Made by a program: the position numbers and the translations under genes. DNA of 28,557 bases from Candidatus Asbonarchaeum danakilense (GTDB lineage: Archaea > Nanohalarchaeota > Nanosalinia > Nanosalinales > Nanoanaerosalinaceae). The notes under the pieces were generated by a model. That model was not told the origin of the DNA. It worked only from the letters and a program-made list of their open reading frames with translations, and made no database searches. The DNA lies in the NCBI GenBank assembly GCA_034190465.1, contig JAXINV010000036.1:1-28557 (forward strand). Direction: 5' to 3'. Of this stretch, positions 18,900-28,557 are shown in pieces. The number at the start of each line of letters is the position of its first letter. Within the stretch, counting starts at the first letter, position 1.

Positions 18900-18920
18900 G
18901 GTACGGAGGATGAACAGTAG

Positions 18921-19185
18921 TGGGAACGCCGCGGATGGGACGTGCTGAAGGTGCAGGGGACCGGTGGCCGCTCTCCCTGCTGCGACCCCCTGAACGCAGG
19001 TCCTACGGCTTAGGGCTGCTCCGGTCAGGGTCTGACCCGGTTCACCGCAGTACCTGCCCCAGGGGACAGCAGATCGACGATTGGCCGCCGGGCTGCAGTC
19101 TCCAGCAGCGTCCTCTCCGTCGGCTTCGACCCCGCTGTTGAGGGCTTGCGGTGACAGGGGGCCCCAAGTCCCCCGGTCTATCCCG
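18921..19185 (-). ncRNA. ffs: SRP RNA (7S), ~265 nt, apparently without helix 6
   Basis: Minus strand begins GGGATAGACCGGGGGACTTGGGGCCCCCTGTCACCGCAAGCCCTCAA (archaeal Alu domain); helix 8 GGGTCAGACC...GGAGCAGCCC preceded by GGTGAACC; 3' end GTTCCCA pairs with the 5' end; TATA upstream. Confidence 0.9.
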
Positions 19186-19207
19186 TTGGAAGAGTATGCG
19201 GCAAGCC

Positions 19208-21416: not shown

Positions 21417-21803
21417 ATGAGGCTGCCGATCGTTGGAGACATGTTCGAGAGCGACGGGCTGGATCAGGTGTACGGCCACGGACGGACGCTGGACCAGGCC
21501 GTCGAGGCGGCGTACGACGCGCTTCCGGTGGACGGCCACGTCGAGGTCGTCGAAGGGTCGTGGACGGACCTGGCGACCCGTGAGACCTACGACCCGGACG
21601 AGCCCGACACCGCGACGGAGACGGCGGATGGCTACGGGCTGAAGGCGGTCGAACTGACGTACTGGCAGGATCCGTGCTATGATCCGGACGCCGGCAGCGG
21701 CGGATCGGAGCCGTACCACCCGCTGGATGAGCTTGAAGGTGTCGACCACCCGAACGATGGACTGTCGGGTGTCAGGCATCCGCTGGACAATTTCCCGGCC
21801 TGA
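21417..21803 (+). CDS. Acidic hypothetical protein
   Basis: D/E-rich ORF divergent from a shared TATA; start 21417 or 21441. Confidence 0.6.
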   Translation: MRLPIVGDMFESDGLDQVYGHGRTLDQAVEAAYDALPVDGHVEVVEGSWTDLATRETYDPDEPDTATETADGYGLKAVELTYWQDPCYDPDAGSGGSEPYHPLDELEGVDHPNDGLSGVRHPLDNFPA

Positions 21804-21804
21804 T

Positions 21805-21990
21805 TCATGCCTGGTTCTGCTGTCTTCGCTGGAAGAAGATGTATGCGAGGGAGAACGCTATCCCGCCGGCTGCACCGGTGATCGCCTGCCCGATCAGGTT
21901 TTCGTCGAACAGGACACCGATGAGGATGTAGATGACGACCCAGAGCACGACGATGCCGAGGCCGCGGAGCCAGGGGTTTGAACGGTCCAT
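21805..21990 (-). CDS. Small 2-TM membrane protein
   Basis: 61 aa, two hydrophobic helices; ATG 4 nt after the tRNA-Cys 3' end. Confidence 0.6.
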   Translation of the reverse strand: MDRSNPWLRGLGIVVLWVVIYILIGVLFDENLIGQAITGAAGGIAFSLAYIFFQRRQQNQA

Positions 21991-21994
21991 GGAG

Positions 21995-22065
21995 AGCCGG
22001 GACTGGGATTTGCACCCAGGTTATCCGCTCTGCAGGCGGACGCATCACTACTCTGCCATCCCGGC
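21995..22065 (-). tRNA. tRNA-Cys(GCA), no encoded CCA
   Basis: GCCGGGA/TCCCGGC acceptor stem, TCCGC-CTGCAGA-GCGGA anticodon arm, CTGGG-TGCAAAT-CCCAG T arm, U73 discriminator. Confidence 0.93.
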
Positions 22066-22177
22066 ATTGGCCGGATGGCGAGGGGAGCACCGTCAGGTGC
22101 GTCCCCGTGGAAACTCCTGTCGGAGTTTCTTTGATCGAGTGAACCGTTGCGGTTCATCGAATCTGCCATCCCGGCAT
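22052..22177. repeat. 16-bp perfect direct repeat TCTGCCATCCCGGCAT (22052-22067 and 22162-22177), matching the tRNA-Cys 5' end
   Basis: Exact duplication with 110-bp period. Confidence 0.95.
22068..22175 (-). ncRNA. Unrecognised structured RNA / pre-tRNA-Cys leader (closing stem plus three hairpins)
   Basis: GCCGGGATGGCAGA...TCGCCATCCGGC closing stem; hairpins TGAACCG/CGGTTCA, GAAACTCC-GACA-GGAGTTTC and GGGGA.GCACC-TGAC-GGTGC.TCCCC; TATA at 22203-22210. Confidence 0.65.
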
Positions 22178-22202
22178 CTGGCGTAGGGATTGGGTTACAG
22201 TC

Positions 22203-22210
22203 TTTTTAAG
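22203..22210 (-). promoter_or_regulatory. TATA box driving structured RNA plus tRNA-Cys
   Basis: CTTAAAAA on the minus strand ~28 nt upstream of 22175; no TATA near 22090. Confidence 0.6.
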
Positions 22211-22228
22211 CCACCGTCCGGAGGTACG

Positions 22229-22891
22229 TTACTCCCGGCTGCCCAGGAGCTGGAGCAGGTGGATGAAGATGACGATGAAGTCGATGTAGAGGCTGATCGC
22301 GCCGCCGACAGGACCGAACTCGTTCTTCAGAATCTTTGACATGTCGTACAGCACGAACAGCGAGAAGATGACGATGGTGCCGACGTTGATCGCGAGCTGG
22401 ATGCCGGAGGGGAACTGTCCGACGATGAACTGCAGCAGGCTGAGCCCGATCAGGCCGAACACTGCCATGATGAGGAACATACCCATCGGGCGGAAGTCTC
22501 TGTTGGTGAACCAGACCACTGCGGCCAGTCCAAGCATGATGAAGCTGGTGATGACAAGGGCCTGGCCGATGACGATCGGGTTGGCGGCCAGATAGATGGC
22601 GATCAGTGGTGAGATGAAGACGCCCTCAACCACGGCGAAGGCGATGGCGAAGACGATGTTGAACGGATAGCTCTCGCGGAACGCCCTGGCGCCGTAGATC
22701 ATCCCGATCTGGACGCCGAACAGGAGCAGCATACCGATGAGACCCATCCGCGCGACCGCCATCCAGGCGCCGGACGCGGCCATCCAGTACGTCACGACAC
22801 CGGTGATGAGGAGCATGAAGCCGAAGATCGGGAGCGTCTTCTGCAGGAACTGCTGCCGGGCCTCGGCGGGATAATTGGTCACGTCGAACAT
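22229..22891 (-). CDS. Bax inhibitor-1/YccA family membrane protein
   Basis: About 7 TM helices; FSLFVLYDMSKI and AISLYIDFIVIFIHLLQLL motifs; ATG 22891 with upstream TTTTTAA. Confidence 0.88.
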   Translation of the reverse strand: MFDVTNYPAEARQQFLQKTLPIFGFMLLITGVVTYWMAASGAWMAVARMGLIGMLLLFGVQIGMIYGARAFRESYPFNIVFAIAFAVVEGVFISPLIAIYLAANPIVIGQALVITSFIMLGLAAVVWFTNRDFRPMGMFLIMAVFGLIGLSLLQFIVGQFPSGIQLAINVGTIVIFSLFVLYDMSKILKNEFGPVGGAISLYIDFIVIFIHLLQLLGSRE

Positions 22892-22925
22892 CGCAGGGAA
22901 CAATGCCCGGTGCAACCATTAAAAA

Positions 22926-25399: not shown

Positions 25400-26833
25400 A
25401 TGACCCTGCAGGTCTACAATTCGCTCTCCAACGAGAAGGAGGCGTTCCAGCCGCTGCAAGACGGTCTCGTCGCGATGTACGTCTGTGGCCAGACGGTGTA
25501 CGACTACATGCACATCGGCCACGGCCGGACGTACATCGCGTTCGACGTGATCCGCCGCTACCTGGAGTTCAAGGGCTACGCGGTCAAGACGGTGATCAAC
25601 ATCACCGACGTCAACGACAAGATCAACGACCGCGCGGAGGAGGAAGGCCGCGAGCCGCGCGAGGTCGCGGACGAGTACGCCCGCATCAACCTGGAGGACT
25701 TCGAGGAACTGGGCGTCCACGCGGACGCCTACCCGAAGGCCTCGGAGTACGTCGACGAGATGATCGAGACGGTCGAGGCCCTGATCGAGAAGGGGCTGGC
25801 GTACGAGTCGCAGGGCAACGTGTTCTTCGACGTCCGGGAGTTCGCTGACTACGGCAAGCTGTCCAACCAGGAGCTGGAGGACATCTCCGGTGACCGCGAC
25901 GACATCATGGCGATGGACGCGAAGAAGCACCCGGAGGACTTCGTCCTCTGGCGCTCCAGGTCGAGCGACGATACGAACGGCCCGACCTGGGACAGTCCCT
26001 GGGGCGAGGGCGTGCCGGGCTGGCACATCGAGTGCTCTGCTATGTCCTCCAAGCTGCTCGGCGACCGGTTCGACATCCACGGTGGGGGCAGCGATCTGGT
26101 GTTCCCGCACCACGAGGATGAGATCGCGCAGGCGGAAGGCGCGACTGGCGAGGAGCCCTGGGTCAAGTACTGGATGCACTCCGGGCTGGTCCGGATGGAG
26201 GAGGACAAGATGTCCAAGTCCCTCGGCAACTTCGTCCCGACCCGCGAGCTGCTGGAGGAGTACGATCCAGGGGTGTTGCGGCTGCTTGTCGCCTCGACGC
26301 ACTACCGCAAGCCGCTTGACTATTCTGAAGAGAAGCTCGAGGAGGCGGAGCAGAACCTGGCGAAGCTGCGGAACGCGCGCAACAACCTGGAGGCTGAGCT
26401 GAACAACGTCGCGTTCGTCCCCGACAAGTTGGACGACCACGATGTTGAGACGCTTGACAAGGTGTTCGAGCTCCGGGAGCGGTTCATCGACGCGATGGAC
26501 GATGATTTCAATACGCCGGAGGCGTTGAAGAACCTGTTCGAGCTGGCTTCAAGGGCGAATGCGTACGTCAACGATGACAGGGCGTCAAAGCGCCCGGTCA
26601 TTGAACGCGCGTTGAAGGAGCTGCATGAACTGGCCTGGGTCGTCGGTGTGCTCGGTGAGGAGGCGCAGACCGGTGAAGAGGCCAGCGCGTTCATCGATCT
26701 GGCGGTCGATGCCAGGGAGAAGGCCCGGGAGTCGGAGCAGTACGAGTTGGCTGACTGGATTCGCGACCGGCTGGCGGAGAAGGGGGTCGAGCTGGAGGAT
26801 ACCTCGACGGGGACGCGGTGGACTAGAGGGTAG
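25400..26833 (+). CDS. cysS: Cysteine--tRNA ligase
   Basis: YVCG.TVYD..HIGH, PGWHIECSAM, HGGG.DL.FPHHE, KMSKS, MDDDFNT and AD.IRD.L motifs. Confidence 0.97.
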   Translation: MTLQVYNSLSNEKEAFQPLQDGLVAMYVCGQTVYDYMHIGHGRTYIAFDVIRRYLEFKGYAVKTVINITDVNDKINDRAEEEGREPREVADEYARINLEDFEELGVHADAYPKASEYVDEMIETVEALIEKGLAYESQGNVFFDVREFADYGKLSNQELEDISGDRDDIMAMDAKKHPEDFVLWRSRSSDDTNGPTWDSPWGEGVPGWHIECSAMSSKLLGDRFDIHGGGSDLVFPHHEDEIAQAEGATGEEPWVKYWMHSGLVRMEEDKMSKSLGNFVPTRELLEEYDPGVLRLLVASTHYRKPLDYSEEKLEEAEQNLAKLRNARNNLEAELNNVAFVPDKLDDHDVETLDKVFELRERFIDAMDDDFNTPEALKNLFELASRANAYVNDDRASKRPVIERALKELHELAWVVGVLGEEAQTGEEASAFIDLAVDAREKARESEQYELADWIRDRLAEKGVELEDTSTGTRWTRG

Positions 26834-27919: not shown

Positions 27920-28347
27920 GTCTCGATAAGCAGGAAGACGATGAGTAGGAGGACGTCCATCCCGTACCAGCACACGGGAATACCCATTCTGACGCATTCA
28001 GGGTAGAGGTCGGTGCCGTAGCTGAAGTCGAGCGGGTAGAGGAAGTTGTACGGGTTGGAGATGGTGTCGAACAGGAGGTGGATGGAGAAAGCGCCGAGCA
28101 GCAGCCGTGCATACTTCTGGAGCCGGTCTGCAAGCAGGATGGCGGCAAGACCGATTACTGGCAGCAGGAGGGCGGAGTGGCTCCATGAAGCCCGCTCTGC
28201 GAGAGCGATATGCGGGTTGACCAGGTCGGGCAGCACGCCGAAGAACCCGACGAGCAGTACGGTCCTGTAGGAGTGATTGACGCCCCTCCAGAGGCCGTAC
28301 AGCCGCAGCGCGACGATCGGCGCCAGGATGTGGGTGATCGGCAGCAA
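27907..28347 (-). CDS. Membrane-bound metal-dependent hydrolase (YdjM/DUF457-like)
   Basis: TH...LPDL...SHS...HLLFD motifs; TTG start immediately after the tRNA-Gln discriminator. Confidence 0.75.
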   Translation of the reverse strand: MLPITHILAPIVALRLYGLWRGVNHSYRTVLLVGFFGVLPDLVNPHIALAERASWSHSALLLPVIGLAAILLADRLQKYARLLLGAFSIHLLFDTISNPYNFLYPLDFSYGTDLYPECVRMGIPVCWYGMDVLLLIVFLLIETYRD

Positions 28348-28557
28348 TAGCCCGGCCCGGATTCGAACCAGGGGCAGGAGGTGTCTCCACCACACGCCGT
28401 TGTGTCAGGGTTCCGGCCGGTTCGCGGAGCGAACCGGTCCCTTCTACTCACTTGCTTCTGGAGGAAGCAAGTTCGAACAGCAGTCTTTCGGACCTGCTGT
28501 GTCGCGAAGCGTGCGAGTGCCAAAGCCTCCTATGTTTGACCGCTACACCACCGGGCT
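28348..28557 (-). tRNA. tRNA-Gln(TTG) with 137-nt intron at 37/38 (intron 28383-28519)
   Basis: AGCCCGG/CCGGGCT acceptor with archaeal A1-U72; GGAGG-CTTTGG|A-CCTCC anticodon arm; TTCGAAT T-loop; bulge-helix-bulge at the junctions. Confidence 0.92.

What the first reader, a model, noticed from the sequence alone, without database searches (positions are those of the whole stretch)
22052..22210. Multi-hairpin RNA upstream of tRNA-Cys that duplicates, and could sequester, the tRNA 5' end
Seen: the only TATA box (22203-22210) points to a start near 22175, 110 nt upstream of tRNA-Cys. That start carries an exact copy of the tRNA's first 14 nt (16-bp direct repeat). The ~108-nt element folds into a closing stem (GCCGGGATGGCAGA with TCGCCATCCGGC, two bulges) around three clean hairpins and ends ...GGCCA, giving a cloverleaf-like shape. 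The 3' strand CTCGCCATCCGGC can instead pair across a CAAT loop with the 5' strand of the real tRNA, which would block the acceptor and D stems. Inference: it is (a) a conformational switch or chaperone leader controlling tRNA-Cys maturation, (b) an independent tRNA-derived ncRNA or tRNA mimic released from the precursor, or (c) a mini-element inserted at the tRNA 5' end with target duplication. It matches no family I recognise.
Basis: partly seen in the sequence, partly recalled or inferred. Interest (0 to 1): 0.85.

Follow-up and report, generated by a model that had tools for sequence, protein, structure and literature searches.

The report
Tiny hairpin insertion restoring tRNA start
The folded stretch in front of this salt-lake archaeon's cysteine tRNA gene is a 110-base protein-free insertion that repeats the gene's first bases so the gene stays intact; a close relative lacks it exactly, and similar units flank both ends of many tRNA genes in this lineage and share parts with its tRNA introns.

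Summary
In detail: a 16-bp direct repeat, three hairpins and a closing stem (z -8.1), with no Rfam match. A syntenic contig of a close relative carries the precise empty allele (skips exactly 110 nt across the 16-bp repeat). The unit is present at tRNA-Cys in 11 of 52 related genomes and varies within four genera. Its hairpins H1-H3 occur in different combinations. The same design (promoter, dead 5' copy, hairpins, anti-copy, intact tRNA) precedes 8 of 38 tRNAs in this genome, sometimes as arrays. Mirror units follow tRNA 3' ends, and one follows the thermosome gene. Hairpin H2 also lies in 12 of 46 canonical tRNA introns, 11 of them 8-10 nt before the 3' splice site. No splice motif was found at the Cys unit, and no mobilising enzyme is linked. 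The two RNA conformers are real in silico, but a regulatory role lacks support. I found no description in nine literature searches. This scan had noted similar units before, in other DPANN/CPR DNA and at 3' ends in this genome.

The parts
22203..22209 (-). TATA-like box of the tRNA-Cys gene, 34 nt before copy 1; transcription start inferred near 22180-22184
   Evidence: spacing matches unit-free G000 tRNAs; start not mapped
22162..22177 (-). Copy 1: tRNA nt -2 to 14, the original gene start left behind as a dead fragment (distal arm of the 16-bp direct repeat)
   Evidence: retained in the empty allele; first bases mutated in G014, G037, G049
22052..22161 (-). The 110-nt inserted unit as defined by the empty allele (register ambiguous by 16 nt; equivalently 22068-22177)
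   Evidence: joint 22051 to 22162, skips 110, 16 shared letters, run X4 record 17
22135..22160 (-). Hairpin module H1 (also in Cys units of G019, G014, G027, the Ser(UGA) unit of G000, L273 and one G000 Arg intron)
22110..22129 (-). Hairpin module H2 (GAAA...TTTC type; also in 3' units, canonical introns and behind the thermosome gene)
22082..22106 (-). Hairpin module H3 (sole hairpin of the Cys units of G029, G024, G058)
22070..22082 (-). Anti-copy: imperfect complement of tRNA nt 1-14/15; pairs with copy 1 or with the real tRNA 5' strand
22066..22069 (-). 4-nt linker (loop of the alternative hairpin); its last two bases belong to the repeat
22052..22067 (-). Copy 2: proximal arm of the direct repeat, forms the 5' end of the intact tRNA
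21994..22065 (-). Intact, intron-less tRNA-Cys(GCA), the only tRNA-Cys called in the assembly; no 3' unit follows it
22229..22915 (-). Upstream neighbour, Bax inhibitor-1 family membrane protein; not part of the unit
   Evidence: syntenic in the empty-allele contig

Best explanation
The 110 nt are a protein-free DNA insertion unit of a lineage-wide family that lands just inside an end of an essential gene and brings a fresh copy of that end, so the gene survives. SHOWN: the unit is precisely present or absent across a 16-bp direct repeat; copy 1 sits at the normal distance from the promoter; hairpin modules H1-H3 are combined differently between units; units accumulate in tandem; a mirror form exists at tRNA 3' ends and behind a protein gene. 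INFERRED, RNA level: the unit is transcribed as a long 5' leader. The anti-copy pairs with copy 1 before the real tRNA start is made, which keeps the dead copy away from the acceptor stem, and RNase P then cuts at the true +1 (22065), releasing the leader as a by-product. This pairing is probably what selection maintains. INFERRED, DNA level: I favour target-templated copying, in which the gene end and its complement are copied by strand switching at a nick in the looped-out single strand while small hairpin cassettes enter at the break (about 0.45 within this explanation). The main alternative is a tyrosine recombinase acting in trans on the folded single strand, where copy:anti-copy rebuilds a duplex att site (about 0.35); other routes take 0.2. 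Loss and tandem gain follow from slippage or recombination between the direct repeats. The enzyme is not identified.
For: Precise empty allele in a syntenic contig of another study, about 95% identical by my count from its mismatches. Cys unit in 11 of 52 genomes with readable upstream DNA, 3 families, present/absent within genera g1, g13, g17, g19. 5' copies at 8 of 38 G000 tRNAs and 18 of 111 tRNAs of five relatives, against 2 of 1300 shuffles. Arrays of three different units before tRNA-Leu in G000 C13 and tRNA-Cys in L273; exact 58-nt tandem copies in G001. Mirror 3' copies at 13 of 33 G000 tRNAs (2 of them across N-gaps, so doubtful) against 6 of 1300 shuffles. The same H2-plus-end-copy design behind the thermosome gene, which no tRNA-processing role explains. 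Strong GAAA/GAAC-type hairpins: 19 of 31 lie within 300 nt of tRNAs, 2.4% of the genome. The anti-copy fits its own tRNA allele better than the mean of other alleles in 8 of 11 units; 6 pairs change on both sides, 0 of 500 shuffles. Anti-copy:copy 1 pairing 0.84 before copy 2 is transcribed. RNase P RNA is present elsewhere in G000, just under the family cut-off.
Against: No mobilising gene is linked. G000 has one tyrosine-integrase match, on an unrelated contig, and no Y1 transposase or reverse transcriptase match. All 11 integrase loci that had a tRNA, of 30 examined, lie on the 3' side. Direction (gain versus precise loss) is inferred from the distribution; no tree was built. G000 and G019, of different families, share the whole H1-H2-H3 unit at 79%, which fits transfer or old age. 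Leu anti-copies keep mismatches to their local tRNA at nt 9 and 11 across genomes, which argues against pure local templating. In 3 of 11 Cys units the anti-copy does not favour its own allele. At equilibrium the G000 precursor is predicted to adopt the trapped fold (anti-copy on the real tRNA, 0.91), so harmlessness relies on folding kinetics or tertiary structure that the model ignores. Covariation counts rest on 2-4 sequences for H1 and H2, on a structure drawn from these same sequences. No RNA data.
Confidence: 0.68

Rival explanations
1. Regulatory switch or chaperone leader: the anti-copy toggles between copy 1 (tRNA folds, RNase P cuts) and the real tRNA 5' strand (maturation blocked), tuning tRNA-Cys levels.
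For: The two conformers are within 4 kcal/mol in G000 and nearly equal in 5 of 9 units computed. The fold changes as the transcript grows. Leu units often add a third segment that locks the anti-copy in a pseudoknot (6 of 6 pairs in 11 of 17 units, with a different but matching pair of segments in G029), a sign of selection on structure.
Against: Absent from 41 of 52 genomes and from a close syntenic relative. No conserved sensor element; modules swap freely. The same design occurs at tRNA 3' ends and behind the thermosome gene.
Confidence: 0.12
2. Shrunken remnant of a classical tyrosine-integrase island that integrated through a 5' tRNA fragment (pTN3-like), with the cargo deleted.
For: The fragment and gene have the configuration that Islander uses, and 159 of its 3919 islands have 5' fragments. 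pTN3-like att sites are 5' halves. Integrases occur in 43 of 70 genomes of the phylum. One contig has 1328 other letters at this tRNA's +1.
Against: The copy stops at nt 12-15, short of the anticodon loop, T loop or T/acceptor junction named by Islander. All 11 Cys units are 55-114 nt, and no longer 5' copy lay within up to 1.5 kb of any Cys gene examined. Integrase loci with a tRNA were all 3' (11 of 11). The anti-copy and the thermosome case are unexplained.
Confidence: 0.1
3. Independent ncRNA or tRNA mimic released by RNase P with its own function.
For: Very stable four-way junction (z -8.06) with a CCA-like end in G000. Unassigned, highly expressed hairpin ncRNAs are reported in a cultured nanohaloarchaeon (PMC10266531).
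Against: No Rfam or ARAGORN call. Length, arm number and 3' end are not conserved. The five published ncRNA sequences, read by eye in the supplement, do not start with a tRNA 5' copy.
Confidence: 0.06
4. Non-canonical D-arm intron: copy 1 is exon 1 and the 110 nt are spliced out by EndA.
For: Removing 110 nt at any register in the repeat gives the same tRNA. The minimum-energy fold puts copy 1 in the acceptor stem. EndA is encoded. H2 is shared with canonical introns.
Against: No canonical bulge-helix-bulge at any register in 11 of 11 Cys units, against 34 of 44 canonical introns scored the same way. Copy 1 has lost G1 or C2 in 3 of 11 units.
Confidence: 0.04

Closest known systems
tRNA-targeting integrative elements (Islander islands, PMC4383910; archaeal pTN3-type 5'-half att sites, PMC8371274; tRNA gene fragments, PMC9897764)
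   Same: The target gene is split and restored, a displaced end fragment lies in the same orientation, an empty site exists, and elements accrete in tandem.
   Different: 110 bp against the 2-200 kb that Islander accepts and 9-23 kb in the Thermococcaceae cases. No integrase. The fragment ends at nt 14. It carries a complement of the fragment. The tRNA keeps its own promoter, whereas pTN3-type integration puts it under the integrase promoter. It also acts at a protein-gene end.
Archaeal BHB tRNA introns and intron transposition in Thermoproteales (seen through the abstract, methods passages and section 2.5 of bioRxiv 10.64898/2026.10.13.758758)
   Same: Small structured inserts in tRNA genes, shared between isotypes; H2 is in 12 of 46 canonical introns here, against 6 of 5000 random windows.
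   Different: No BHB at the Cys unit, the tRNA is complete without splicing, and there is a target duplication plus anti-copy.
MITEs and small intergenic repeats (CIR about 110 bp, RPE, REP; table seen in PMC3184786)
   Same: Short, non-coding, palindromic, closed by an imperfect inverted repeat.
   Different: The closing repeat derives from the target and differs at each locus; the duplication is 16 bp; no second copy of the whole unit in the genome; no cognate transposase found.
Integron cassettes (attC) and Xer-exploiting folded single-strand att sites (recalled, no call)
   Same: Imperfect inverted repeat with unpaired bases around a variable hairpin region, and arrays of different units at one site.
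   Different: The stem is built from the target gene itself; no recombinase is linked; the defining sequence boxes were not tested.

Membership tests
Tyrosine-integrase island at a tRNA gene | Intact tRNA plus displaced end fragment in the right configuration | tested here: met
Tyrosine-integrase island at a tRNA gene | Precise empty target exists | tested here: met
Tyrosine-integrase island at a tRNA gene | Integrase gene within or overlapping the element | tested here: not met
   110 bp, no Pfam match in overlapping frames; sole G000 integrase on C45
Tyrosine-integrase island at a tRNA gene | Crossover in anticodon loop, T loop or T/acceptor junction | tested here: not met
   copy ends at nt 12-15 in 11 of 11 Cys units; subsites
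Tyrosine-integrase island at a tRNA gene | Excised circular form | not testable with these tools
   only contigs could be laid
Archaeal BHB tRNA intron | Bulge-helix-bulge at the junctions | tested here: not met
   0 of 11 Cys units at any register; 34 of 44 canonical introns pass
Archaeal BHB tRNA intron | Splicing endonuclease encoded | tested here: met
Archaeal BHB tRNA intron | Spliced or circular RNA product | not testable with these tools
   no RNA holder listed
MITE | Several near-identical dispersed copies | tested here: not met
   whole unit single in G000; only modules recur
MITE | Element-specific terminal inverted repeats | tested here: not met
   closing stem follows the local tRNA sequence and differs by isotype
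MITE | Cognate transposase with the same ends | tested here: inconclusive
   Y1 transposase in 4 of 70 genomes, none among the 11 with a Cys unit; DDE families not searched
tRNA or known structured ncRNA | Match to a curated covariance model | tested here: not met
Regulatory 5' leader (switch) | Two mutually exclusive folds | tested here: met
   (secondary-structure model only)
Regulatory 5' leader (switch) | Conserved at the locus among relatives | tested here: not met
   11 of 52 genomes; empty in a close relative
Integron-type cassette | attC core boxes and a linked integron integrase | not tested
   resemblance recalled only

The most novel reading that the evidence does not exclude
These units are an undescribed class of protein-free, end-restoring mobile mini-elements in which copying the target end and its complement is part of the insertion chemistry. 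They attack single-stranded loops of tRNA genes and ends of other essential genes. D-arm and T-loop hits survive only with a duplicated end, while anticodon-loop hits survive as BHB introns. The shared H2 module at a fixed distance from the point where tRNA sequence resumes would then mark a DNA-level route of tRNA intron gain in archaea.
Probability: 0.3. Interest if true: 0.85.

Novelty: new variant of a known kind. Interest (0 to 1): 0.62.

Why it matters
How archaeal tRNA introns arrive is stated to be open in a 2026 preprint on Asgard archaea, which found no general route. Here one hairpin module sits 8-10 nt before the 3' splice site in 11 of 12 introns that carry it, and 3-7 nt before the resumed T-loop copy in seven 3' units. 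There is also a filled/empty allele pair, so the question becomes testable in a lineage with cultured members. The units show that streamlined DPANN genomes host very small selfish or tolerated DNA at essential gene ends. In practice they can be mistaken for novel ncRNAs or CRISPR-like arrays, and they appear to break assemblies at tRNA genes.

Tried and rejected
5S rRNA and RNase P RNA as identities: both are encoded elsewhere in G000 and the element matches neither. Assembly artefact: rejected. Nested model (a working tRNA inside a broken one): no 3' fragment follows this tRNA-Cys. Hidden D-loop introns without duplication in G000: a T-arm scan outside called tRNAs gave only contig-end and gap-side copies and coding matches. 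BHB in other-isotype units: 7 of 19 scored canonical at some register, apparently from self-complementary words inside the repeat; 10-24 registers were tried per unit and no null was run, so I do not count this. Autonomous partner: GIY-YIG in 13 of 70 genomes, LAGLIDADG in 49 of 70 (mostly in long frames), reverse transcriptase in 7 of 70, Y1 transposase in 4 of 70; I did not inspect most of these loci, and none was seen inside a Cys unit. The metagenome scan for the tRNA-Cys start gave 3 loci, none with a clear unit. The Pro pattern hit only G000 of 70 because its spacing window was narrow. Expression: no RNA holder listed. The sigma-70 promoter scan is uninformative for an archaeon. The conformer script stopped after 9 of 11 units. 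The Leu pseudoknot count on the automatic alignment was weak (12 of 500 shuffles for covariation; the third segment was misaligned in the G029 rows).

Full report
CONTEXT. The window is contig C3:1-28557 of G000, a 1.2-Mb, 61% GC, 92% complete archaeal assembly. I infer a Nanohaloarchaeota-type DPANN archaeon from the small genome, the archaeal SRP RNA, salt-lake holders and an equivalent unit in a record titled Ca. Nanohalalkaliarchaeum (L273). The tools gave no name for G000.

OBSERVATION. Contigs from two samples of one study carry the unit in one piece; one of them may be the source.

IT IS A PRECISE INDEL. Of four runs laid, run X4 (another study) has a contig syntenic over the whole 1.7 kb, about 95% identical by my count (81 other letters in about 1576 aligned), that skips exactly 110 nt across the 16 shared letters. 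Run X5 has one contig with 1328 other letters between the tRNA +1 and the upstream gene, and one low-depth contig with a variant of the proximal part of the unit. In the phylum, 59 of 70 genomes matched the query. I read 59 loci: 54 gave a tRNA-Cys 5' end and 52 genomes had at least 140 nt upstream. Eleven of the 52 have the unit. It is present in some and absent in other members of genera g1, g13, g17 and g19. These genomes are related, so the counts are not independent.

IT IS MODULAR AND NOT SPECIFIC TO tRNA-Cys. Cys units are 55-114 nt. G000 and G019 have H1+H2+H3, G014 has H1+H2, G027 has H1, and G029, G024 and G058 have H3. In G000, 8 of 38 tRNA calls that passed a T-loop filter (46 called) have a 5' copy of 13-23 nt upstream. 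In five relatives, 18 of 111 do (for three genomes only the best 30 of 32-36 tRNA matches were fetched). Where a TATA-like box could be assigned, the first copy usually follows it by about 32-42 nt, the distance normally seen for tRNA +1. Copy 1 is therefore the original start and copy 2 came with the insertion (inference). Arrays of three different units precede tRNA-Leu in G000 C13 and tRNA-Cys in L273. A Leu repeat pattern hit 11 of 70 genomes.

MIRROR UNITS. Downstream of tRNAs the order is reversed: linker, anti-copy of the T loop and T stem (usually with one extra or mismatched base), hairpin, then a copy from about nt 53 to the 3' end. 3' copies scored at 13 of 33 G000 tRNAs (two across N-gaps), 10 of 27 in G001, 7 of 24 in G029, 4 of 25 in G024, 2 of 26 in G014 and 2 of 6 in G019 (one hit each in G014 and G029 is a neighbouring tRNA), against 6 of 1300 shuffles. 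This tRNA-Cys has none. The same design, H2 followed by a copy of the last codons, lies behind the thermosome gene on G000 C11. That case points to a DNA-level process aimed at ends of essential genes rather than to tRNA processing.

LINK TO INTRONS. H2 occurs in 12 of 46 canonical introns, 15 of 138 downstream flanks and 6 of 138 upstream flanks, against 6 of 5000 random G000 windows. In 11 of the 12 introns it ends 8-10 nt before the 3' splice site. In 7 of 18 downstream H2 hits it ends 3-7 nt before the T-loop copy. One G000 Arg intron holds an H1-H2 pair like that of this unit. The Cys unit itself is not an intron by the motif test: 0 of 11 units have a canonical BHB at any register, against 34 of 44 canonical introns, although EndA is encoded.

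RNA BEHAVIOUR. Folding growing transcripts gives anti-copy:copy 1 pairing of 0.84 before copy 2 exists, and anti-copy:copy 2 pairing of 0.91 at equilibrium for the full precursor. The trapped fold is 4 kcal/mol more stable in G000, strongly favoured in 4 of 9 units computed and roughly equal in 5. Since this is the only tRNA-Cys called in the assembly, the native fold must win often enough, probably through folding order and tertiary contacts (inference). Pairing appears to be maintained: 6 pairs change on both sides in 10 aligned units (G015 left out), 0 of 500 shuffles, with few sequences per module and a structure drawn from the same sequences. The anti-copy prefers its own tRNA allele in 8 of 11 units. 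Many Leu units add a third segment that pairs the D-stem part of the anti-copy as an H-type pseudoknot (11 of 17 at 6 of 6 pairs, best partner chosen by scan); the formal count was weak. I read this as selection to keep the dead copy and anti-copy occupied. A recruited regulatory role remains possible.

MECHANISM. No enzyme was linked. G000 has a single tyrosine-integrase match, beside Cdc6-like genes on C45. Integrases occur in 43 of 70 genomes, including 8 of the 11 with a Cys unit; the other three are 73-82% complete. Of 30 integrase loci, 11 had a tRNA and all 11 lay 3' of it. Y1 transposase, reverse transcriptase and GIY-YIG searches showed no pattern. Because units match many isotypes, local alleles and a protein gene, I favour target-templated copying over a prefabricated att site. 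The conserved mismatches in Leu anti-copies and the 79% identical unit in two families show that finished units also persist or move as wholes.

COMPARISON WITH WHAT IS KNOWN. It works like a tRNA-targeting integrative element in miniature but fails membership (no integrase, 110 bp, crossover subsite). Papers seen: PMC4383910, PMC9897764, PMC3184786 and PMC8371274 as passages; PMC10266531 as passages plus a supplement search; bioRxiv 10.64898/2026.10.13.758758 as abstract, passages and section 2.5 (its supplements are closed). None of these passages describes such units. Nine full-text searches listed nothing that does, judged from titles and abstract starts. Subscription journals are largely missing from the library, so an earlier description cannot be excluded. 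Integron attC, Xer-exploiting sites, RNase P cleavage at +1 and archaeal TATA spacing are recalled, not from a call.

EARLIER SCAN NOTES. Unchecked notes describe similar units in CPR bacteria and other small archaea, and the 3' units in this genome. They are not counted as support. I had recorded the insertion reading and the intron link before seeing them.

VERDICT. A real feature: a protein-free, end-restoring insertion unit, not a dedicated tRNA-Cys regulator or tRNA mimic. New variant of a known kind, interest 0.62. The empty allele and the shared intron module make its origin testable.

Noticed in passing
window 21994-22065 and tRNA-Cys of 54 loci: D-loop and T-loop covary: 47 of 54 tRNA-Cys genes have AG in the D loop with G in place of U55, 6 have the usual GG with U55, 1 was unresolved.
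   Followed up: partly
G000 C11, L423:1859-1950: H2 hairpin plus a copy of the last codons directly behind the thermosome gene, with further inverted copies.
   Followed up: partly
L349:1445-1618 and L350-L362, L145: Leu 5' units often form an H-type pseudoknot with an A-rich loop; three different units stand in tandem at the end of G000 C13.
   Followed up: partly
window 22065-22227 and 21803-21819 in runs X5 and X4: One related contig has 1328 other letters at the tRNA +1; another has 249 letters replacing 15 near 21803. The sequences were not retrievable.
   Followed up: no
L033:1565-2316 (G020): A frameshifted reading frame that looks like a LAGLIDADG endonuclease (label recalled, not scanned) runs up to the tRNA-Cys +1, without a tRNA 5' copy.
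   Followed up: partly
L186:454-7000 (G000 C10): About 6.5 kb of thioredoxin, cupredoxin and ArsR genes with no integrase match lie between tRNA-Ser(CGA) and its 3' fragment, which is followed by a 3' mini-unit.
   Followed up: partly
G000 C5:47218 and C11:36858: Two identical tRNA-Pro(CGG) genes with nearly identical 5' and 3' units on different contigs.
   Followed up: no
G000 C11:6754-6936; L150 (G029): Intron-containing tRNA that reads as Ile with a UAU anticodon (ARAGORN calls it Tyr(ATA) in G000 and Ile(TAT) in G029).
   Followed up: no
window 28347-28557: tRNA-Gln(UUG) with a 137-nt hairpin-rich intron, cut by the window end and an assembly gap; several G000 N-gaps and contig ends fall at tRNA flanks, so units are probably undercounted.
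   Followed up: no
window 18918-19188 and 25400-26833: Archaeal SRP RNA, and a cysteinyl-tRNA synthetase gene 3.3 kb from tRNA-Cys on the opposite strand.
   Followed up: no
G000 C16:18800-19000; L257:401-480: Clusters of similar hairpins with no tRNA called nearby.
   Followed up: no
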